A stretch of DNA of 10,131 nucleotides from a virus: the UHGV virus genome UHGV-0819168; one strand, 5' to 3'. Under the pieces are notes generated by a model. It was not told the origin of the DNA. It ran no database searches and worked only from the letters and a program-made list of their open reading frames with translations. A program made the position numbers and the translations under genes. Position 1 is the first letter of the stretch; every line of letters starts with the position of its first letter. Shown one piece after another: positions 1 through 10,131 of this stretch.

Positions 1-127
1 GCGCTGACAGCTTTACCTGGTGATCTTCAGCATCTTCCCGGGCTATTGTGGTTCGCGCAGTGGCTGATTTTGCTGACATCACCACAGGGGGCAGACGGAC
101 CATTGAACCATGGCCTCCGGAACAAAT
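1..127. repeat. Direct repeat copy 1 (127 bp, identical to 2177-2303); left boundary cut by window start
   Basis: Base-for-base identity of 1-127 with 2177-2303; identity stops at 128 (ttt) versus 2304 (aag). Confidence 0.9.
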
Positions 128-797
128 TTTCAGGAAGGTACTGATCGATGTTTTCCGGGAAGCTCAGCAAACGGGCGATGTCCCGCCAGGCTTTAACCCT
201 GCAGAATCGGCAAAAAAACCGCAGGTGCGGATATCAAGACAGCGACTGACTTTTGATGAGTGGATGATGATTTATAACGCAGCGGAAAAGGATGGTTACT
301 TTTTACAGCGCGGTATGCTGCTGGCACTGATGACAGGCCAGCGCCTTTCAGATATTTGCAAAATGCAATTTTCGGATATCCGGGATGGTTATCTTCATGT
401 CGAACAGCAAAAAACAGGAACCCGGATTGCCATCCCTCTGGCTCTGCGTTGCGATAAATTAAATCTCACCCTAGATGATGTGGTGTCATCCTGCCGCGAT
501 TGCGTTCTTAGTCCGTGGCTATTGCACCACCATCACGCGAAAGGGACAGCTAAGCGCGGCGGGATGGTTAAGCCAGCAACATTAACCGTTGCATTTAAAA
601 AAGCCCGGGATTCTGTGGATTACAACTGGCGTGCTAATGGCACCCCACCCTCTTTCCATGAGCAGAGATCTTTATCAGAGCGATTGTTCAGAGAGCAGGG
701 GGTTGATACCAAAATTTTGCTGGGCCATTCGAATCAAAAAATGACCGATATTTACAACGACGCACGCGGTAAGGAATGGAAAAAACTGGTCATTTGA
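48..797 (+). CDS. int: Tyrosine recombinase / phage integrase, lambda Int-like catalytic domain; probably 5'-truncated (in-frame TGA at 21-23, homology to Int begins just after the direct repeat)
   Basis: Translation matches lambda Int C-terminal half as recalled: RLTFDEW..IYNAAE, LLALMTGQRLSDICKMQFSDIRDGYLHVEQQKTGTRIAIP (lambda LAVVTGQRVGDLCEMKWSDIVDGYLYVEQSKTGVKIAIP), PPSFHEQRSLSERLF, LLGHSNQKMTDIYNDARGKEWKKL. Catalytic Arg, His-x-x-Arg and Tyr positions present. Stop TGA at 795-797. Confidence 0.85.
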   Translation: MVRAVADFADITTGGRRTIEPWPPEQIFRKVLIDVFREAQQTGDVPPGFNPAESAKKPQVRISRQRLTFDEWMMIYNAAEKDGYFLQRGMLLALMTGQRLSDICKMQFSDIRDGYLHVEQQKTGTRIAIPLALRCDKLNLTLDDVVSSCRDCVLSPWLLHHHHAKGTAKRGGMVKPATLTVAFKKARDSVDYNWRANGTPPSFHEQRSLSERLFREQGVDTKILLGHSNQKMTDIYNDARGKEWKKLVI

Positions 798-803
798 TGA
801 CCA

Positions 804-837
804 GTTTTGCAGAGGGGTTTTGCAGAAGTTTTGCAGA
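804..837 (+). promoter_or_regulatory. Three tandem copies of GTTTTGCAGA (804-813, 817-826, 828-837) immediately 3' of int; candidate integrase arm-type binding sites (P'-arm-like)
   Basis: Exact 10-bp repeats spaced 13 and 11 bp apart (about one helical turn), directly after the int stop, in an AT-rich non-coding region. This mirrors the position of P'1-P'3 relative to int in lambda attP. Confidence 0.45.
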
Positions 838-1079
838 GAAAATTAAAAACGATATCCTGCGGAGAACATAAACACCCACGGATCCAGTCGTACCGAGTCT
901 TTTACGGTAGTAACACCAGATTTGTACTTAGCCGTGGTATCGATATCCATGTACCACACTGACATGTTTTAAAAAATGCAATAAGACATTGTATCTGAAA
1001 GAAAAAACAGGATTTGAGGCGCTTTTTTATACCGTTTTTCCGTGTTTTTAACTGCCTGATTTTATTGAAATCTTTTTTA

Positions 1080-1089
1080 GTTTTGCAGA
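1080..1089 (+). promoter_or_regulatory. Fourth copy of GTTTTGCAGA; candidate distal arm-type site (P-arm-like)
   Basis: Exact repeat of the 10-mer ~250 bp from the tandem triplet, within the same AT-rich non-coding tract. Confidence 0.35.
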
Positions 1090-1152
1090 AAGGATTTTTT
1101 GCTCGATCGCTTTAATTTTATACATTCCTGATAACGGAAATTTTTTTGCCCG

Positions 1153-1182
1153 TTGACAGTTTTTGTTCTCCGGGGCTATATT
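1153..1182 (+). promoter_or_regulatory. Sigma70-type promoter (TTGACA, 18-bp spacer, TATATT) reading toward the rha-like gene
   Basis: Consensus -35 TTGACA at 1153-1158 and near-consensus -10 TATATT at 1177-1182, preceded by an A/T-rich UP-like tract (1136-1147). Confidence 0.6.
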
Positions 1183-1190
1183 CCTCACAC

Positions 1191-1264
1191 AACCGCAAAA
1201 TCGGTTGTCGGGATTGGCGTCTCGGATAACATCACAACGCATAGCCGCGTTTGCGGTTTTTTTT
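1191..1264 (+). terminator. Terminator-like or attenuator structure in the leader: 9-bp perfect long-range stem (1191-1199 with 1250-1258) followed by T8; possible small RNA of ~75 nt
   Basis: aaccgcaaa at 1191-1199 is the exact reverse complement of tttgcggtt at 1250-1258; a run of eight T follows (1257-1264); it begins at the predicted transcription start of the 1153 promoter. Confidence 0.35.
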
Positions 1265-1424
1265 GCGTTAAGCATTGCCACATTCGCATTATGGTGGGGC
1301 GTGCAGGGGCGGAGAAATCCGCGCCGGGTTTTGTGATGACCGGTTACGCCAACCCTGTACGTCTCACCACCTCCCTGATTGGCGTCAGAGGTGGTGATCA
1401 TCCAATTAATTGGAGTCATCACAT

Positions 1425-1982
1425 ATGAATACAGCTATAACTTTTTCTAACGAGTCACCAAAAGTCTTTTTCAAAGATGGTCGCCTGGTTACCACCTCTC
1501 AAGCTGTTGCCGACTACTTCGATAAACAACATAAACACGTTTTAGCTAAGATTGACACACTCGACTGCTCTCCCGAATTTACATCAGCCAACTTTTCGGC
1601 CGATGTTCAGACTGTCGAAATTGGCAACGGCGCAGAACGTGAATCACGATGCTACCTGATCACAAAAGACGGCTTCATGTTCCTCGTAATGGGATTTACT
1701 GGCAAAAAAGCAGCCAGACTAAAAGAAGCTTACATTGAAAAATTTAACGCAATGGAAGAAGAACTCCACAAACGTCCTCCTGCAGCACAAAACTCCCCCG
1801 CCCCAAATAATGGATGCGCATTACTGATCCACTTCGATAAACACGGTCAGGTCGAGTTCACAGAAAAAGTCCCCGCCGATGCGATGGTATGCACGCTGGA
1901 ACGGTTTAAATTTTATCTGGAGCAACATGGGTGGATCGTTGCCCGTAAAGAACAATTGGTGGAAAGGTTGATGCGGTTTTAA
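1425..1982 (+). CDS. Rha-family phage regulatory protein (antirepressor-like); ORF track 1410-1982, ATG 1425 with GGAG at 1412-1415 is the likelier start
   Basis: N-terminal Rha signature: VTTSQAVADYFDKQHKHVLAKIDTL and YLITKDGFMFLVMGFTGKKAARLKEAYIEKFNAMEEEL. Followed by an intrinsic terminator. Confidence 0.8.
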   Translation: MNTAITFSNESPKVFFKDGRLVTTSQAVADYFDKQHKHVLAKIDTLDCSPEFTSANFSADVQTVEIGNGAERESRCYLITKDGFMFLVMGFTGKKAARLKEAYIEKFNAMEEELHKRPPAAQNSPAPNNGCALLIHFDKHGQVEFTEKVPADAMVCTLERFKFYLEQHGWIVARKEQLVERLMRF

Positions 1983-1993
1983 TGAATGCAAAA

Positions 1994-2022
1994 CCCCGGA
2001 TGATCACCGGGGTTAATTTTAT
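1994..2022 (+). terminator. Rho-independent terminator after the rha-like gene
   Basis: GC stem ccccgg (1994-1999) / ccgggg (2007-2012) with loop atgatca, followed by T-rich ttaatttt. Confidence 0.6.
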
Positions 2023-2176
2023 CGAGCGTGATTGCCGCTAATCGCCATCGCTCTGATTGAGCGTAAATCATTCAGGTTATTCAGTTCTTCCTTCTGCTCT
2101 CGCTGACGTCAATAAATCCCATCATTGCGATCAACCTCATCCTTAACCATTGATGCGAGCAGTTCTTCCAGTTTCT

Positions 2177-2303
2177 GCGCTGACAGCTTTACCTGGTGAT
2201 CTTCAGCATCTTCCCGGGCTATTGTGGTTCGCGCAGTGGCTGATTTTGCTGACATCACCACAGGGGGCAGACGGACCATTGAACCATGGCCTCCGGAACA
2301 AAT
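2177..2303. repeat. Direct repeat copy 2 (127 bp, identical to 1-127)
   Basis: Perfect identity to window positions 1-127 at a constant offset of 2176; flanks differ on the right side. Confidence 0.9.
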
Positions 2304-2343
2304 AAGGGCAAAAATAACAACCACTATCGAAAGCTCACAAACT

Positions 2344-2477
2344 AACCGCAGCACGTTCCTGCATACGACGTGTCTGCGGCATAATCCCAATGATTACTCC
2401 CTGACAGGATTTGCAGGCCACTCAATATCAGGTGCAGTTGATGTATCAACACGATTCAACAATACCCGATATTTATT
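2344..2477. repeat. Direct repeat A (~134 bp, ~90% identical to 3394-3526): 3' end of a tfa gene plus a 34-bp imperfect palindrome (2346-2379)
   Basis: Alignment by eye with 3394-3526; contains the last ~28 codons of the minus-strand tfa-like ORF and the palindrome ccgcagcacgt...acgtgtctgcgg. Confidence 0.85.
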
Positions 2478-2663
2478 CCATGCCTCCAGCAACGATCTTT
2501 CTTCCTCCGTTGCGATTTCCAGATCTACAGCATCCTGCAGTGGCGCAATATACTCACTGAATTCCTGGATGTAGAACTGTGTGGTGACGGTCTTCCAGCC
2601 ATTCGGCTCCTGCTGTATCGAAGCATACCAGGCTATTTCAATATCGCTATGCTGCGGCAGCAT
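2394..2663 (-). CDS. tfa: Tail fibre assembly protein, lambda Tfa-like C-terminal domain (89 aa; short, possibly chimeric or remnant)
   Basis: C-terminal 55 aa match lambda Tfa as recalled: [54 protein letters not shown] versus [56 protein letters not shown]-terminal 35 aa unrelated. Confidence 0.6.
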
Positions 2664-2690
2664 TTAACCCCTTGTAATTCATCGCCATAA

Positions 2691-2719
2691 TTGATTTAAT
2701 TCACAAATAAAACTATAAC
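2691..2719 (+). promoter_or_regulatory. Candidate sigma70 promoter for the methyltransferase gene (TTGATT, 17-bp spacer, TATAAC)
   Basis: -35-like TTGATT at 2691-2696 and -10-like TATAAC at 2714-2719. Its position implies a very short leader and use of ATG 2732 rather than ATG 2720. Confidence 0.35.
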
Positions 2720-3388
2720 ATGGTGAAATCAATGAAAAAAAACACAGATGATGGGGCTAAAATTTACACACCACTTACCCTAAAGCTTTATGACTGGTGG
2801 GTTTTGGGAGTATCAAATCGGCTTGCATGGGGATGTCCTACAAAGGAACACCTTCTTCCACACTTTCTGGAACATGTAGGTAACAACCATCTGGATATTG
2901 GTGTTGGAACTGGGTTTTACCTTACTCACGTACCTGAGAGTAGTCTGATATCTTTAATGGATTTGAACGAAGCTAGCCTGAACGCGGCATCTACAAGGGC
3001 TGGGGAATCAAAAATTAAACATAAAATTAGCCATGATGTTTTTGAACCTTATCCCGCGGCGTTACATGGTCAATTTGATTCCATTTCCATGTTTTACCTT
3101 CTTCACTGCCTGCCTGGAAATATATCTACAAAAAGCTGTGTAATACGCAATGCGGCGCAGGCCTTAACTGACGATGGAACTCTATACGGAGCCACAATTC
3201 TTGGCGATGGAGTTGTGCACAATAGCTTCGGTCAAAAACTGATGCGCATTTACAATCAGAAAGGCATCTTTTCAAACACAAAAGATTCCGAAGAAGGCTT
3301 AACACATATACTCTCAGAGCATTTCGAGAATGTTAAAACCAAGGTTCAAGGTACTGTAGTAATGTTTTCCGCTTCAGGGAAAAAATAG
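2720..3388 (+). CDS. Class I SAM-dependent methyltransferase (Rossmann fold, ~220 aa, substrate unknown); AT-rich moron; alternative start ATG 2732
   Basis: Motif I hh-D-h-G-x-G-x-G (HLDIGVGTGFY), post-I acidic residue (SLMDLNE), motif II (FDSISMFYLLHCLP), motif III (LTDDGTLYGATIL) in canonical order. No DPPY/NPPY or C5-cytosine MTase motifs. Markedly lower GC than flanking genes (about 37% in a hand-counted 60-nt line at 3001-3060). Confidence 0.75.
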   Translation: MVKSMKKNTDDGAKIYTPLTLKLYDWWVLGVSNRLAWGCPTKEHLLPHFLEHVGNNHLDIGVGTGFYLTHVPESSLISLMDLNEASLNAASTRAGESKIKHKISHDVFEPYPAALHGQFDSISMFYLLHCLPGNISTKSCVIRNAAQALTDDGTLYGATILGDGVVHNSFGQKLMRIYNQKGIFSNTKDSEEGLTHILSEHFENVKTKVQGTVVMFSASGKK

Positions 3389-3393
3389 CATCC

Positions 3394-3526
3394 AACCGCA
3401 GCACGTTCTTGCTTAAGACGTGCTGCGGCATAATCCCAATGATTACTCCCTGACAGGGTTCGTAGGCCACTCAATATCAGGTGCAGTTGATGTATCAACA
3501 CGGTTCAGTAACACCCGATACTTTTT
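3394..3526. repeat. Direct repeat B (~133 bp, ~90% identical to 2344-2477): perfect 11-bp-stem palindrome (3396-3428) plus a 27-codon tfa 3' fragment ending in a TAG where Trp is expected
   Basis: ccgcagcacgt (3396-3406) / acgtgctgcgg (3418-3428) perfect inverted repeat. Minus-strand translation of 3446-3526 gives [27 protein letters not shown], preceded by TAG at the Trp position. Confidence 0.85.
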
Positions 3527-3574
3527 CTAGGCTTCCACCACCAGCACGACAAGATGCCGCATACAGTGAACCAG

Positions 3575-3769
3575 TCAGTCCAGTTTTCAGACAACCAGTG
3601 CGTCACCTTTTTGAAGGCGCTTTAAAGCACGTTTTAATCCAGGTCGGCCTGTCCTTGTTCCGCTTAATTTATCTTCAAATATTTGTTCATATCCTGCACA
3701 AACAAGAGCGTTTCGTTGCAGATCTGTATTCTGGTCATTTGTTGATACCCTTACATAGCCAATCAGCAC
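3575..3769 (-). pseudogene. pin: pin/gin-family serine DNA invertase, 5' remnant only (~60 codons; TGG to TGA nonsense then loss of the remaining ~120 codons)
   Basis: From GTG 3769 (RBS gggag upstream): MLIGYVRVSTNDQNTDLQRNALVCAGYEQIFEDKLSGTRTGRPGLKRALKRLQKGDALVV-stop-KLD-stop. This matches the Pin/Gin/Hin/Cin N-terminus including the catalytic Ser in VRVSTNDQ, and stops where Pin continues WKLDRLGRS. Confidence 0.8.
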
Positions 3770-3823
3770 GCTGAATCTCCCGTCCAAAAGCACAAATCAT
3801 GCCATGCAGGCCAGAAACCGCCA

Positions 3824-3849
3824 TTATCTAAAACCTCGGTTTACAGGAA
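3824..3849 (+). other. Gin/Pin-family 26-bp inversion crossover site (pix/gix-like, right-type orientation)
   Basis: ttatctaaaacctcggtttacaggaa; reverse complement ttcctgtaaaccgaggttttagataa differs at one position from the gix sequence as recalled. Lies ~50 bp upstream of the pin start. Confidence 0.7.
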
Positions 3850-3894
3850 ACGGTAAACAAGGCTGGTAACGCCGTTCAGCGTTCCGGCGATAAA

Positions 3895-4863
3895 ATGACC
3901 GGAGAACTGAAAATTGGCACGGTGAATGCGCTGCGAATTTTCAATGATGCCTTCGGTCTTATTTTCCGTCGTTCAGAAGATTTTCTTCATTTCATTCCGA
4001 CGGCTGAAGGACAAGGCGAAAACGGTGATATCGGCCCATTAAGGCCATTCGCTATAAATCTGAGAACAGGTGCTATATCTGTCAGCCACGGGGCCAAAAT
4101 TGATGGTGGGCTGGCGCTTGGTACAGATAACGCACTGGGCGGTAATTCCATTACTCTCGGAGATAACGACACTGGTATTAAACAGGGCGGCGACGGTGTC
4201 CTTTTATTCTATTCAAATGGACAACTGGCATTTGGGCTTCAACCCGCATCTGCTGATTTTTATAAGCGGGTTGCATATATTCATCAGGGAATAATTCCTG
4301 ATGGAAGTGGCGCATTTGCAGACCAGTTGAATAATGCCACCGCGCCTTTTGTTCAGACGCAGTTTGCCTGGAATCCCACTCCTGGTGGTCATTACGTGCC
4401 GATAGTTAAGGGCTTGTCCATTCGCAATGGACAGGGCTATCCCGGCGCGGTCAGCTTTGGGTATTTACTGACAGAACAGTATGGATTTCCGGTTCCATGT
4501 ATTCATATGCGTGGCGATGGCGGTAATGATGCTTTATGGCAGTTTAACCCGAACGATAAATCCTTTATTTCACCGGGTGCTCTTATTGCGGGTGGCGTCC
4601 GTTATAACACCGATGGAAATATATTTGGTGGGTGCTGGGGGTCAAACTTAAATGATTACCTGAATAGTTCTTTTATCAGAAATGTGCGTCTGGGAGGCAG
4701 ACGTTCTGACACATTATATCGCGGAGGACTTTGCGAACCAGGTAATGGTCATGTGACAACAGGATTGCAAATTATTGGTGAGGTTGATGGAGATGACTGG
4801 ATGGTGTCACGACCACTACAAAAATACATTTCTGGTAACTGGTATAACGTTGAACAGGCATAG
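3895..4863 (+). CDS. Silent alternative side-tail-fibre C-terminal cassette; open frame runs from the crossover site (3832) with no own initiation context, expressed only after inversion
   Basis: Frame open from 3832 through the 3824-3849 site in the same phase as stf through the 6905-6930 site. Shares LGGNSITLGDNDTGIKQGGDG and C-terminal RPLQKYISGNWYNV with the expressed stf C-terminus. Confidence 0.65.
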   Translation: MTGELKIGTVNALRIFNDAFGLIFRRSEDFLHFIPTAEGQGENGDIGPLRPFAINLRTGAISVSHGAKIDGGLALGTDNALGGNSITLGDNDTGIKQGGDGVLLFYSNGQLAFGLQPASADFYKRVAYIHQGIIPDGSGAFADQLNNATAPFVQTQFAWNPTPGGHYVPIVKGLSIRNGQGYPGAVSFGYLLTEQYGFPVPCIHMRGDGGNDALWQFNPNDKSFISPGALIAGGVRYNTDGNIFGGCWGSNLNDYLNSSFIRNVRLGGRRSDTLYRGGLCEPGNGHVTTGLQIIGEVDGDDWMVSRPLQKYISGNWYNVEQA

Positions 4864-4878
4864 CCATCAGGAGAATAT

Positions 4879-5406
4879 ATGCAACATCTGAAAAATATTA
4901 CCGCCGGAAACCCCAAAACCATTGAGCAGTATCAGCTTACGAAAAAAGCTGGCGTTATCTGGCTATATACAGAAGACGGTAAAAACTGGTATGACGAATT
5001 AAAAAACTTTCAGGATGATACTTTAAAAATAGCTTATGACCAGAAGGGGATTATTCGTTGTATTGAGAAAGACGTATCAACACTTAACCCTGACGGGTTA
5101 AGTGTTGTTGAGTTACCGAATATAACAGCCAACCGTCGCGCCGATATCTCGGGAAACTGGAAGTTTCTGGATGGTAAAGTAGTAAAGCGGGAATATACAA
5201 AACAGGAACTGCAACAGCAGGCAGAGTTACAAAAAGCCGCTTTGCTTTCCGAAGCGGAGTCTGTGATTCAACCGCTGGAACGTGCTGTCAGACTGAATAT
5301 GGCAACTGATGAGGAACGCACACGACTGGAATCATGGGAACGCTACAGCGTTATGGTCAGCCGTGTGGATACTGCAAAGCCTGAATGGCCACAGAAACCA
5401 GAATAA
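4879..5406 (+). CDS. tfa: Tail fibre assembly protein (second copy, partner of the silent fibre cassette)
   Basis: [38 protein letters not shown].. is 60-70% identical by eye to the 5437-5970 Tfa; C-terminus ..[31 protein letters not shown] is the Tfa C-terminal pattern. AGGAG RBS at 4867-4871. Confidence 0.85.
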
Positions 5407-5416
5407 CAACAAATTA

Positions 5417-5436
5417 AGGCCCGTACGGGCCTTTTC
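5417..5436. terminator. Bidirectional intrinsic terminator between the convergent tfa genes
   Basis: Perfect palindrome ggcccgtacgggcc (5417-5430) flanked by A-rich sequence on one side and T-rich (ttttctt) on the other. Confidence 0.6.
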
Positions 5437-5970
5437 TTATTCTGGTGGTTCCGGGAATGTTACAGGAAGAACCGAGGTATCAGTTGTCTCAACCTGTTGC
5501 ACGTATCGCATCCAGTTCATCAGTTGCTGTCTGTCTGAATCAGTGATAATCCCCAAAGTAAGCTGTGTTTGCCAGAACTGCGTTTTTTCTCTGGCCTGCT
5601 GTAATAATATTTTTTTCTGGTTTTCCGTCTGTAGGCGCAACTCTTCTTCGGTATATACACGTTTAATGACTGCGCCATCTTTAAACATCCATTTACCTGA
5701 GTCGTCAGCACGCCGGTTGGCGGTAATATCAGGAATCTCAACGACGCTATAACCTTCAGGGTTAAGTGTGGAGGCATCTTTGGTTATGGCAACAATAATA
5801 TTATTTTCATCGTAAACAATCTTTATGGTGTCTGGCTGAAAGTTTTTCACTTCCTCATACCAGTTTTTTCCGTCCTCAGAGTAAAGCCAGATAACTCCGT
5901 GTTTCTTTGTTAACTCATACTGTTCCAGTGTTTTAGCATTACCCGCTTTTATGTTCTTTAAGTGCATCAT
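5437..5970 (-). CDS. tfa: Tail fibre assembly protein (currently expressed orientation), translationally coupled to stf
   Basis: [58 protein letters not shown].. matches the E. coli prophage TfaE/TfaR-type family. ATG lies 1 nt after the stf stop. Confidence 0.9.
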
Positions 5971-5971
5971 A

Positions 5972-8797
5972 TTAAACGCTCGCTACATTATACCAGGTGC
6001 CATTTATATACTTTTGAACGGGTCTGTAATAAACGCCCGCTATATTATCGGCAGAGTTAGACCCTGTATCCTGAACATTAATACCAGACAATACATGACC
6101 TGAAGGGCACTGGAAATTCCATGTTTGCCAGTTGTTCACTCCATAATATTGCTGTGAACCAAGTCGAACATCTTTCACATAACGGGAATCAAAGTTACCG
6201 TAATCCGAGGGGTTAACACGCCCTGTAATATTTATGGTTTTATTACTTTGAATGCTTCCGGAGACAAAGCGCATAACATGGACGTTATTAGCATAAACAT
6301 CCAGATTACCATCGCCATTTTGTTTAAAGCCCGTGTCATTATCACCCAATACAATCGAATTACCGCCAAGAGCACTGGATGTTCCGATACCCAGTGCACC
6401 ATTCAGTTGACCACCAGATAACGGCAGTGCACCAACATCTCCTGCTGAAGGCTTTCTGGTGGTGGTGTAAAATTCGGACCAGTCGGCTTCAAAACCATAA
6501 CCATCACGGGCTGAACGATAAAAAATACCGCCATTTTTATAATTAATCCGAAACTGAGCTGCAGGACAACTTCCTTCTCCCATATAAAAATGAATAATTA
6601 ACGTTGATGCACCACTAATAGTTGCGTTATAGGCTCCGCTACTCCAGTTCCATCCAACTGCTTTATCATTCGCAACGGTGCTTCCTGTTTTCCCTAAGGC
6701 AAACGCACCAACATGACTTGCTTTTAATGTGATATCGGAGGAACCATCAAAAGCCACATTGCTTATTTTCCTGGCAGTTTTTAATTTTGCAGCTGTAGAA
6801 GCATTGCCGGATAGTTCACCAGAAAGGCCACCGCTGAATGTTTGTCGATTAGTCCAGGTATTCGCTGTACTGAGTAACGGTATTTTCTCCCCGCTTGTGC
6901 CGAGTTCTCGTAAACCGAGGTATTCGATAACGGCGGCAACGGTCGATTTCGCAAGAATATCCCGCCCAACTTTTGTCAGGGTTGCCAGACTGGCAACATC
7001 ATTCCCCGTAAAATACGGAAACCTGTCTGCCGCAGTAGCAAGCCCGGCCAGCGCCGTCAGGGTGGCATCTTTCGGTTGCTTACCCGCAAGCGCGCTAGTC
7101 ATGGTGGTCGCAAAATTCGGGTCGTTGCCCAACGCCGCAGCCAGCTCGTTCAGCGTATTCAGTGCGTCAGGCGACGAGTCCACGAGGGCAGCGATCGCAG
7201 CCATAACATAAGCCGTGCTTGCGATTTGGGTATTATTCGTTCCCTGTCGCGCAGTTGGTGTTGTTGGCGTTCCGGTCAGTGCAGGACTATTTAAGGGCGC
7301 TTTCTTGTTCGTTTCACCCATTACCGCCTTAACCGCTTTTGGCGTTGCCGCCAGTGACTCGGAAGTGCTGTTGGTCGCACTGCTGAGCTGTACTATCCCC
7401 TTTTTCGTCGTGCTCGCATCCTCAAGCGCCACGGCGGATGCAATATCCTCTGCCCGTTTTGCCGCTGTCTCGGCGCGCGTTGCCGCGGATTCCGCCGTAC
7501 TTTTGCTCTGAGCTGCCGCCGTCGCACTGCCAGCTGCCTCTGTCGCCTTCGTGGATGCCGTCGTGGCGCTGCCCTTTGCTGCTGACGCCTGTCTGGTCGC
7601 CTCATCTTTTGAAGCAGACGCAGATGATGCCGATGACGCCGCTGAACTGGCTGACGATGCGGCTGCCGCCTTAGAGGAAGCAGCATTGTCTGCTGAAGTC
7701 TTTGCATTTGTTTCAGAGGTTTTTGCTGCAGAAGCAGACCTCGCTGCTGCAGTGGCTTGCTCAGTGGCTTTGCCAGCCTTCGTTGTGGCTGTTGAAGCGG
7801 ATGATGCGGCGCTTTCTGCCGATTTTCCGGCGGCGGTGGCACTGGCTGAGGCCTGCCCGGCACTTGTTGACGCGGCACTGGCAGATAATGCAGCCGCTGT
7901 TTTTGAACCTGCCGCAGCTGAGGCGCTCTGTCCCGCTGCTGTTTCAGAAGACTTAGCGTTCGTCTCGGACGTTTTTGCCGCCTTCGCGGAATTTCCTGCC
8001 GCCGTTGCCGAGGAAGCTGCACTACTGGCACTTGATGATGCATTCGTTTCTGAAGATTTCGCTGCCTCTTTTGAGGCCGCCGCACCCCGTGCCGAGGTGG
8101 CAGCTTCTGACGCCTTCGTGGTCGCTGTGGATGCAGAAGTGGCTGCCGATTTTTGTGATGCTGCGGCATTCGTTTCTGACGTTTTCGCGGCACTGGCGCT
8201 GGTAGCTGCCGCGCTTTTTGATGACTCTGCAGCAGCAGCACTTTTTGCTGCTTCACGGGCCTTTGTCGATGCCGTTCCTGCGCTGGAAGACGCTGACTGA
8301 GCCGACGACGCGGCCTGTCCGGCTGACGTGCTGGCGGCACGTGATGAGGCTGCAGCATCGGTTGCATGAGTTGCCGCCTCGCTGGCTGATGCACTGGCAT
8401 CGCTGGCTGATTTTTTCGCGGCTGCCGTATTCTGTGCAACCGCGGAGGCGTTACGTGACACCTCTTCTACCATCTGCTCAAAGCGGCGCAGTGCCTCCGG
8501 TCGGACATCATCCTCCGTCATGGCACCGAGAAAATCATTCAGCGTACCTGGTCTGGAACCTTCATAGACGGTAATGGTCCCGGCATGTGAAGGCGGAAAA
8601 CCTTCAACCAGCAGGGTGACGCTGTACTGACCATGCTCAACATCCATGCTGTAACGTCCGGCTTCATCCGGATTTTCAGAGGCCACCGTGTTCACCACCA
8701 CCGTGCTGCTGGTTCGTCTGGCCTTCAGCACAATGGTGCAGTTCTGTACTGGTTTTCCTGTGCCATCTTTAAGCACGCCAGAAATTTTTACTGTCAT
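5972..8797 (-). CDS. stf: Side tail fibre protein, lambda Stf-like (941 aa): conserved N-terminal domain, long Ala/Ser/Thr-rich repeat region, C-terminal ~310 aa encoded inside the invertible segment
   Basis: N-terminus [74 protein letters not shown] is near-identical to lambda Stf as recalled; repeated AAKTSETNA units; VIEYLG junction at the crossover site. Confidence 0.9.
6905..6930 (+). other. Gin/Pin-family 26-bp inversion crossover site inside stf (left-type orientation)
   Basis: ttctcgtaaaccgaggtattcgataa resembles gixL as recalled (TTCCTGTAAACCGAGGTTTTGGATAA), is inverted relative to the 3824-3849 site, and encodes VIEYLGLRE in the stf frame. Confidence 0.65.
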
Positions 8798-9615: not shown

Positions 9616-10131
9616 TCAGCTAATCGTGATGCCTGCAGTGGCTTTCTTCATCACCACAACCAGCAAATCGCTGATACTTGCTGTGGGATACCAGTTATTT
9701 ACCAGCCATGCTGACACCGAAAACTCCAGTGTCATGTGACCGTGACCGGCAGGCATATCAATAACACCACTGTAAATCAGCGTATTATCCAGCGCGGTAC
9801 GGTTATAAATTTCAGCACCGTTTTTCCGCACTATCAGACGGCATGAGGAGTAAATATCAGTATGCTCTTTCTCATGTTTAGCGCCGCTGAATGCCACCGC
9901 CGGAATAACAATCTGCCGGTCAAACGGCTGATCGTCATAAACCCTGACGGTAATGGTTCCTGATGGCCACCGCTCCGGTGCACGGGAGTCCCGGGGGAAA
10001 GCTTTGCCCACTGTTTTAACGAGATCGCCTTCAATCTGGTTCGCGGACAATTTTCCCAGAACCCGACAGTTCTCGTTAATCGTGACGTTGTTGAGCGTCC
10101 CGGAGTTCGCATTCACGTTACCGCTGATATC
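9616..10131 (-). CDS. J: Tail tip / host specificity protein J, C-terminal receptor-binding region (partial; gene continues beyond the window end)
   Basis: [52 protein letters not shown] match the C-terminal part of lambda gpJ as recalled; the open frame continues to the window edge. Confidence 0.85.

What the first reader, a model, noticed from the sequence alone, without database searches (positions are those of the whole stretch)
1..2303. 127-bp perfect direct repeat brackets the int 3' fragment, att-like region and rha gene
Positions 1-127 and 2177-2303 are identical and the identity stops abruptly on the right side. Homology of the integrase to lambda Int begins immediately after copy 1, and the int frame has a TGA at 21-23, so copy 1 appears to replace the 5' third of int. 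The reverse strand of the repeat is open and in copy 2 continues into a charged C-terminus (..AEDHQVKLSAQKLEELLASMVKDEVDRNDGIY), so the repeat may itself be part of a gene. The left extent is unknown because the window starts inside copy 1. Possible interpretations are a recombination junction, a duplication that created or deleted the intervening 2 kb, or att-type junctions of a nested element.
Basis: seen in the sequence. Interest (0 to 1): 0.6.

Follow-up and report, generated by a model that had tools for sequence, protein, structure and literature searches.

The report
Prophage rearrangement scar, truncated at window start
The 127-base repeat is real in the sequence, but it is most likely the visible tip of a longer duplication made by one accidental DNA joint inside a common E. 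coli prophage, with its length set by the sequence start (probably an assembler's 127-base overlap), so it is ordinary.

Summary
Positions 1-127 and 2177-2303 are identical, and the identity ends abruptly on the right.

The window is the attP-type end of a lambdoid "PPompW" prophage of E. coli. In order it holds: int 3' part, the 121-bp ompW att, isrK/C4 RNAs, ash, rha, a tail-fibre pseudogene, and tail-fibre genes up to J.

Copy 2 is the native sequence. With its flanks it occurs in 954 of 5,426 complete E. coli genomes. Copy 1 creates a single novel joint at 127|128. This joint fuses the tail-fibre pseudogene to int nucleotide 462 across a 6-bp microhomology (ACAAAT). I found the joint in no complete genome, no public contig collection and no protein collection.

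The left edge of the repeat is simply the first base of the window. 127 is the largest k-mer SPAdes allows, so the length is probably an assembler overlap at a graph branch and not a biological unit.

Best reading: one illegitimate-recombination joint in tandem ompW prophages, which do exist (strain EC15). It is either a deletion scar or a 2,176-bp tandem duplication, and the true repeat is longer than 127 bp. A chimeric artefact cannot be excluded. It is not an att pair of a nested element. Interest is low.

The parts
1..127 (.). Copy 1 of the repeat. It is a displaced copy of the tail-fibre-pseudogene segment, cut on the left by the start of the window, and is probably the 127-nt k-mer with which a de Bruijn-graph contig begins.
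   Evidence: 100% identical to 2177-2303. Bases 1-121 have no similarity to the int 5' region of EC15. 127 as the SPAdes maximum k is my own knowledge.
122..127 (.). 6-bp microhomology ACAAAT at the novel joint, shared by the native int gene (nt 456-461) and the native end of copy 2 (2298-2303).
   Evidence: Three-way comparison of int, window and copy 2; alignment.
128..797 (+). 3' 59% of the tyrosine integrase gene (from int nt 462, codon 154, to the stop). The arm-binding domain and most of the core-binding domain are missing.
   Evidence: 99.5% identical to the intact 1131-nt int of EC15. Pfam PF00589 7e-17 covers the whole catalytic domain. The intact relatives carry PF09003 Arm-DNA-bind_1 in the N-terminal part that is absent here.
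841..961 (-). 121-bp att of ompW-integrating prophages (a phage-borne surrogate of the ompW 3' end), here in P-O-P' (attP or tandem-junction) configuration.
   Evidence: The repeat_region 'duplication due to insertion of PPompW' maps here. Pfam OmpW C-terminus 9e-14 for ORF 843-965. In the five-way alignment the left arm is the int-side type and the right arm is the ash-side type. PMC8112680 describes the 121-bp att.
1153..1428 (+). ash-family ORF, overlapping two Rfam RNA genes: isrK (1189-1263) and C4 antisense RNA (1287-1374).
   Evidence: Pfam Phage_ASH 3e-14. Rfam isrK 72 bits and C4 76 bits, both above their gathering scores.
1425..1982 (+). rha-family regulator gene.
   Evidence: Pfam Phage_pRha 3.5e-27. 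PGAP 'Rha family transcriptional regulator' in EC15 and SUISSEKPC3NDM5.
2019..2297 (-). Tail-fibre (DUF4376) pseudogene remnant that contains copy 2.
   Evidence: PGAP: DUF4376 domain-containing protein, internal stop, missing N-terminus. The translation shows the internal stop. tblastn hits tail-fibre proteins of Rac-SA53 and phiP27 at 57-62% identity. No Pfam hit for the 93-aa ORF alone.
2177..2303 (.). Copy 2 of the repeat, the native copy, continuous with both of its flanks.
   Evidence: Window 2077-2403 is found at >=80% coverage in 954 of 5,426 complete E. coli genomes, 853 of them at >=99%. It is collinear in EC15 (119-3844, 99.9%) and in phage 204576 (2031-3537).

Best explanation
There is only one unusual thing here: a single breakpoint at 127|128. 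It joins the end of a tail-fibre pseudogene segment (native position 2303) to nucleotide 462 of the prophage integrase gene across 6 bp of microhomology. The background is a lambdoid ompW prophage in attP or tandem-junction form (int - 121-bp att - ash - rha - tail-fibre remnants). In that background the joint is most simply an illegitimate-recombination event. One version is a deletion that removed nearly all of one of two tandem prophages, leaving att-ash-rha-X|int3' as a scar next to the surviving prophage. The other is a tandem duplication of the 2,176-bp unit 128-2303. In both versions the sequence to the left of base 1 would be the same as 2050-2176 and beyond, so the true direct repeat is about 1.4-2.2 kb and not 127 bp. 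The figure 127 arises because the window starts there, most likely at the start of a SPAdes contig. A contig that starts on the edge leaving a branching vertex begins with that vertex's k-mer, and the largest k is 127. The vertex is fixed by the right-hand branch point (128 against 2304), which is why the identity ends sharply on the right and spans exactly 127 nt to the left. Shown: the repeat, the joint, the microhomology, the native status of copy 2, the attP-type configuration, and the existence of tandem ompW prophages. Inferred: that the joint exists in the cell's DNA, which rearrangement made it, and that the window start is a contig start. No function is implied. The int fragment lacks its DNA-targeting domains and should be inactive in integration and excision.
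For: Repeat of exactly 127 nt starting at base 1. The joint lies in the ACAAAT microhomology, with int nt 462 following it. Copy 2 with native flanks is in 954/5,426 genomes. There is no boundary at 2176|2177 in relatives: EC15 is collinear over 119-3844, phage 204576 over 2031-3537, and PEC422 up to 2264. The window's att is P-O-P'. EC15 carries two tandem prophages with identical int, xis and exo, and the same int-att-ash junction at 99.9% identity to the window. Tandem PPompW prophages and their general defectiveness are described in PMC8112680. The source is not a complete RefSeq E. coli genome, since no place covers 1-330, which fits a draft short-read contig. Another public draft contig (GCA_019456115.1, L007) begins with about 126-127 nt of an element that is multi-copy in some genomes (up to 22 places per genome) fused to the same int gene. 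That is the same kind of stub. Cluster members of the copy-2 ORF include several 'partial' proteins on contigs of 252-838 bp, so assemblies often break here. The right end of the window lies in gene J, which is multi-copy in most genomes.
Against: I could not identify the source record, so 'window start = contig start' and 'SPAdes, k=127' are inferences. The only test I could make at the right end, using EC15's two J genes as proxy, put the nearest shared >=127-nt run at 10067-10206 and not ending at 10131. The joint is unique: it is absent from 5,426 complete genomes, IMG/VR, JGI metagenomes and GTDB representatives, and its fused ORFs are absent from 15 billion proteins. There is therefore no independent support that it exists in any cell.
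Confidence: 0.6

Rival explanations
1. Chimeric artefact. The joint 127|128 does not exist in the genome. A chimeric library molecule or read (template switching at the ACAAAT microhomology) added a spurious edge to the assembly graph, and the contig happens to start on it. The genome would then simply carry the EC15-like int-att-ash-rha arrangement with an intact int.
For: The joint is found nowhere else. The closest relative, EC15, has the same region with an intact int. Short microhomology is also typical of in vitro chimeras (my knowledge). The foreign part is only a stub at the very end of the sequence.
Against: A de Bruijn edge from the 127-mer into int needs every intermediate 128-mer in the reads, and low-coverage chimeric edges are normally removed (my knowledge of SPAdes). 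A contig that runs from such an edge through the int 3' part into ash would be unexpected if an intact int of higher coverage competed at the same vertex. Truncated int genes are common real features of these defective prophages (PMC8112680).
Confidence: 0.22
2. A 2,176-bp circular molecule, or a tandem array present in part of the population (unit 128-2303: int 3' - attP - isrK/C4 - ash - rha - X). Window 1-2303 has the 'same k-mer at both ends' signature of a circle in SPAdes output, and the graph also exits into the prophage at 2304.
For: 1-2303 begins and ends with the same 127-mer. The unit contains a complete attP.
Against: No replication function was found in the unit. The int fragment lacks its arm-binding domain. 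The joint lies at a microhomology inside two pseudogenised genes and not at the att core. The sequence continues natively past 2303.
Confidence: 0.08
3. A discrete 127-bp direct repeat that is functional: attL/attR or a target-site duplication of a nested mobile element carrying int', att and rha.
For: Perfect identity and a sharp right-hand edge. The prophage-in-prophage paper reports integration sites inside PPompW prophages (PMC8112680).
Against: The left edge is not observed. The bracketed int is truncated by the repeat itself. The known att of this integrase is the 121-bp ompW segment at 841-961. 954 genomes carry the 'inside' flank plus copy 2 plus the 'outside' flank without copy 1, which is not an occupied/empty pattern. 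Phage 204576 shows the same. The joint is seen in no other genome.
Confidence: 0.03

Closest known systems
PPompW lambdoid prophages of E. coli and tandem prophages at ompW (Nakamura et al. 2021, PLoS Pathog, PMC8112680)
   Same: Same integrase (99.4% over window 122-968), the same 121-bp att in the ompW 3' end, and the same end of the prophage. Tandem arrangements and widespread decay by deletion are described. EC15 shows the identical int-att-ash junction.
   Different: In the window the int is cut at nt 462 and fused to a tail-fibre pseudogene segment. That joint is not present in any record examined.
k-mer overlaps at contig ends and loops in de Bruijn-graph assemblies (SPAdes, maximum k = 127; my knowledge)
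   Same: The length is exactly 127, it starts at base 1, and it ends at a point where two continuations diverge. A comparable stub of about 126-127 nt starts another public draft contig in the same int gene.
   Different: The assembler and k of the source are unknown. The second copy is internal, not at the other end of the sequence, so this is a branch or loop and not a simple circular contig.
Microhomology-mediated illegitimate recombination scars in cryptic prophages (truncated int genes)
   Same: Both parental sequences are known and collinear up to the joint, with 6 bp of shared bases at the crossover and no longer homology.
   Different: There is only one sequence and no read support, so a real event cannot be separated from an in vitro chimera.

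Membership tests
attL/attR (or target-site duplication) of an integrated element | The repeat corresponds to the recombination site used by the associated integrase | tested here: not met
   The att of this integrase family is the 121-bp ompW segment at 841-961 (PMC8112680). The 127-mer lies in a tail-fibre pseudogene and has no counterpart there.
attL/attR (or target-site duplication) of an integrated element | Related genomes show occupied and empty sites, with the bracketed segment present or absent as a unit | tested here: not met
   954 complete genomes have the inner flank, copy 2 and the outer flank contiguous without copy 1. No genome has the copy 1|int joint. Phage 204576 lacks ash-rha but with different end points, 1108-2030.
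attL/attR (or target-site duplication) of an integrated element | Both ends of the repeat are defined boundaries | not testable with these tools
   The left end coincides with base 1 of the window and the source record could not be found.
de Bruijn-graph contig-end k-mer overlap (SPAdes) | The length equals the assembly k, and the block starts at the first base of the contig | tested here: inconclusive
   The length is 127 and it starts at base 1 of the window. That base 1 is a contig start, and that k was 127, could not be checked. The source is not among complete RefSeq E. coli genomes.
de Bruijn-graph contig-end k-mer overlap (SPAdes) | The k-mer is a branching vertex, with two different continuations immediately after it | tested here: met
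   After the 127-mer the window continues TTTCAGG... at 128 and AAGGGCA... at 2304, with zero shared bases.
Illegitimate (microhomology-mediated) recombination joint | Both parental sequences are collinear with the product up to the joint, with a few shared bases at the crossover and no extended homology | tested here: met
   int matches from 119/122 onward, copy 2 matches 1-127, and the shared ACAAAT is 6 bp.
Illegitimate (microhomology-mediated) recombination joint | The joint exists in genomic DNA (reads, PCR or an independent assembly) | not testable with these tools
   No reads are available, and there was no second occurrence in any collection searched.
PPompW-type lambdoid prophage, attP or tandem-junction form | int, the 121-bp ompW att with a phage-type left arm, and a phage-type right arm (ash side) are contiguous | tested here: met
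   Five-way alignment. EC15 junction is 99.9% identical over 119-3844. Annotation.

The most novel reading that the evidence does not exclude
The 2,176-bp unit (int catalytic-domain fragment, complete attP, isrK and C4 RNAs, ash, rha) is a real, separately amplified or excised module. It would be a tandem array or mini-circle that carries an attP and an anti-repressor-type control cassette, and that could be re-integrated by a helper prophage's integrase.
Probability: 0.04. Interest if true: 0.35.

Novelty: already known. Interest (0 to 1): 0.1.

Why it matters
It matters little biologically. At most it is one strain-specific deletion or duplication scar in a very common, usually defective E. 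coli prophage. Its practical value is as a caution. A perfect repeat of exactly 127 nt that begins at the first base of a sequence should first be read as an assembler k-mer overlap marking a graph branch. The real extent of the duplication then has to be taken from reads or the assembly graph. If the joint is real, it records the collapse or local duplication of tandem ompW prophages, a process already described for this locus.

Tried and rejected
1. I searched for the joint elsewhere. Window 1-330 against 5,426 complete E. coli genomes gave no place covering >=80%. The 40-mer and 23-mer across the joint had 0 matches in IMG/VR, JGI metagenomes and GTDB representative genomes (the 23-mer was not run against IMG/VR).

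2. I tried to find the source contig through exact products. The fused ORF with starts at 48, 60 and 225 and the 47-aa minus-strand ORF are not on record. The 177-aa product (start 264) is on record in 593 blocks, but the places read are native int genes split by a frameshift or contigs starting inside native int. The 941-aa tail fibre is in 1,242 blocks, which is too common to single out the source.

3. I tested whether the right end of the window is a k=127 graph vertex, using EC15's two J genes. The nearest shared run is 10067-10206, so the result is inconclusive.

4. I considered that int and the 127-mer recombined by extended homology. This is rejected, because the alignment shows only GGnACAAAT in common.

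5. I considered that the repeat is the ompW att. This is rejected, because the att lies at 841-961.

6. I considered an intact gene on the reverse strand of the repeat. This is rejected. It is a pseudogene remnant with no Pfam hit on its own.

7. I considered a rotated circular contig with an untrimmed overlap. This is rejected, because that would put the two copies next to each other and not 2,176 nt apart (reasoning).

Full report
**Observation.** The window contains one exact 127-nt direct repeat, at 1-127 and 2177-2303, 2,176 nt apart. A perfect 127-mer pair cannot arise by chance in 10 kb; my estimate is about 1e-69. The bases that follow the two copies share nothing (128 TTTCAGG..., 2304 AAGGGCA...). 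The left end of the repeat is base 1 of the window, so it is not an observed boundary.

**What the region is.** The window is E. coli DNA from the end of a lambdoid prophage that integrates into ompW, called "PPompW" in GenBank phage records and in PMC8112680. Along the + strand it holds:
- the 3' 59% of a tyrosine integrase gene (128-797; Pfam catalytic domain complete);
- the 121-bp att, which is a phage-borne copy of the ompW 3' end (841-961);
- an ash ORF overlapping Rfam isrK and C4 RNAs (1153-1428);
- rha (1425-1982);
- a tail-fibre/DUF4376 pseudogene on the minus strand (2019-2297), which holds copy 2;
- tail-fibre-assembly fragments, a methyltransferase gene, a truncated invertase gene, an invertible tail-fibre segment, stf, lom and the 3' end of J.

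A five-way alignment shows that the att here has the int-side left arm and the ash-side right arm. That is the attP form, which is also the junction between two tandem prophages.

Strain EC15 has exactly this junction, at 99.9% identity over window 119-3844. It lies between two tandem prophages that share identical int, xis and exo genes. Phage 204576 has int-att followed directly by the pseudogene region, without ash-rha.

**Which copy is native.**
- Copy 2 with 100 nt of flank on each side is found in 954 of 5,426 complete E. coli genomes, 853 of them at >=99%. Its ORF is on more than 1,000 contigs.
- No relative has a boundary at 2176|2177. EC15 is collinear through it, phage 204576 is collinear from 2031, and PEC422 stops at 2264.
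- Copy 1 is the displaced copy. Bases 1-121 have no similarity to the int 5' region.
- Similarity to int starts at 119-122. The last six bases of the repeat, ACAAAT, are also int nt 456-461, and int nt 462 (codon 154) follows.

The only non-native feature is therefore one joint at 127|128, formed across a 6-bp microhomology. It removes 461 of 1,131 nt of int, including the arm-binding domain seen in intact relatives.

**Is the joint seen elsewhere?** No.
- It is absent from all complete RefSeq E. coli genomes.
- It is absent from IMG/VR, JGI metagenome contigs and GTDB representative genomes as a 40-mer, and from the latter two as a 23-mer.
- The fused ORFs are absent from a 15-billion-protein exact look-up.

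This also means the source is not a complete RefSeq genome, which points to a draft assembly.

**Why 127.** From my own knowledge, 127 is the largest k SPAdes accepts and its top default k for long Illumina reads. Contigs are paths of graph edges, and each edge sequence includes the k-mer of its start vertex. If a genome contains the joint, the last 127-mer shared by the paths "X to 2304" and "X to int" is a branching vertex, and that 127-mer is exactly window 1-127 = 2177-2303. A contig that starts on the edge leaving that vertex towards int, goes round through att-ash-rha back to the vertex and exits to 2304 has precisely the structure of this window. The sharp right edge, the exact length and the start at base 1 then all follow from the assembler.

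Three supporting hints:
- Another public draft contig (GCA_019456115.1) begins with about 126-127 nt of an element that is multi-copy in some genomes, fused to the same int gene.
- The protein cluster of the copy-2 ORF contains several "partial" members on contigs of 252-838 bp.
- The window's right end lies in J, which is multi-copy in most genomes.

I could not confirm that the window is a whole contig. A proxy test of the right end with EC15's two J genes was inconclusive.

**Most likely history.** Tandem ompW prophages exist (EC15; PMC8112680). In such an array, illegitimate recombination between the end of the pseudogene segment of one prophage and int nt 456-461 of the same prophage would delete that prophage. 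It would leave yciE-attL-ash-rha-X|int3'-att-ash-rha-X-tail fibres. Alternatively the 2,176-bp unit was tandemly duplicated. Either way the sequence left of base 1 should repeat 2050-2176 and further. The true repeat would be about 1.4 kb (att to X) or 2.2 kb (the whole unit). I put 0.6 on this reading, meaning a real joint with a repeat longer than what is visible.

The main rival is a chimeric library or assembly artefact (0.22). It fits the uniqueness of the joint. It fits less well with a contig that runs from the joint through the int 3' part into ash.

A mini-circle or array present in a subpopulation (0.08) and a true 127-bp att or target duplication of a nested element (0.03) are poorly supported. 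The unit has no replication function and only a crippled int. The real att lies elsewhere. The presence/absence pattern across genomes is not that of an insertion.

**Function.** None is implied. The int fragment lacks the arm-binding domain and most of the core-binding domain. By analogy with lambda Int (established knowledge), it should not carry out integration or excision.

**Verdict.** The repeat is confirmed, but its length is not a biological unit. The feature is an ordinary prophage rearrangement scar, or an artefact, in a well-described prophage family. Interest is low.

Noticed in passing
window 3818-6936, with inverted repeats at 3818-3849 and 6905-6936; invertase fragment at 3587-3793 (-): A 3.1-kb tail-fibre segment (alternative fibre C-terminus plus two tail-fibre-assembly genes) flanked by 32-nt inverted repeats (84% complementary) is in the opposite orientation in strain EC15, at 99.8% identity. 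So the segment has flipped recently. Yet the adjacent serine-invertase gene is only a 68-aa N-terminal fragment, and inversion would need an invertase supplied in trans.
   Followed up: partly
window 1189-1263 and 1287-1374 (+), inside the annotated ash ORF 1153-1428: Rfam isrK (72 bits) and C4 antisense RNA (76 bits) lie back to back just upstream of rha and are fully overlapped by the PGAP/Pfam 'ash family' ORF. The region may be an RNA-based immunity/anti-repressor control cassette and not, or not only, a protein gene.
   Followed up: no
window 2344-2491 and 3394-3540: Two about 148-nt direct repeats at 89-90% identity (3' ends of tail-fibre-assembly genes) bracket the class I SAM-dependent methyltransferase gene (2720-3388). 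This looks like a cargo gene inserted between duplicated tfa fragments.
   Followed up: no
window 803-844 and 1079-1096: The motif GTTTTGCAGA occurs three times in tandem just after the int stop codon (left arm of att) and once more about 110 nt to the right of the att core. These are candidate arm-type integrase binding sites (family D11).
   Followed up: no
window 1108-2030 compared with L015 (phage 204576, CP025907.1) 9799-9883: The whole isrK/C4-ash-rha module is replaced by about 85 bp in phage 204576, so it behaves as an optional insert between attP and the tail-fibre remnants.
   Followed up: no
L001/L013/L014 (E. coli EC15, NZ_CM169486.1, 2.10-2.19 Mb): In EC15's two tandem prophages, the second ends next to zinT and not at an ompW/yciE att. 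This suggests a prophage-mediated chromosomal rearrangement.
   Followed up: no
L016-L020 (ST131-like genomes), about 17370-18830 in locus coordinates: In these genomes the ash end of the prophage lies about 375 bp from trpA, so yciG, yciF and yciE appear to be deleted next to the prophage. lom is also interrupted by ISEc12 in many of them, but not in the window.
   Followed up: no
L003-L005, int region 9403-10534 in locus coordinates: In many strains the same int gene is split into 196-aa and 177-aa products by a 1-nt indel. The 177-aa product is listed in 593 blocks of the contig collection, so this integrase is often already a pseudogene.
   Followed up: partly
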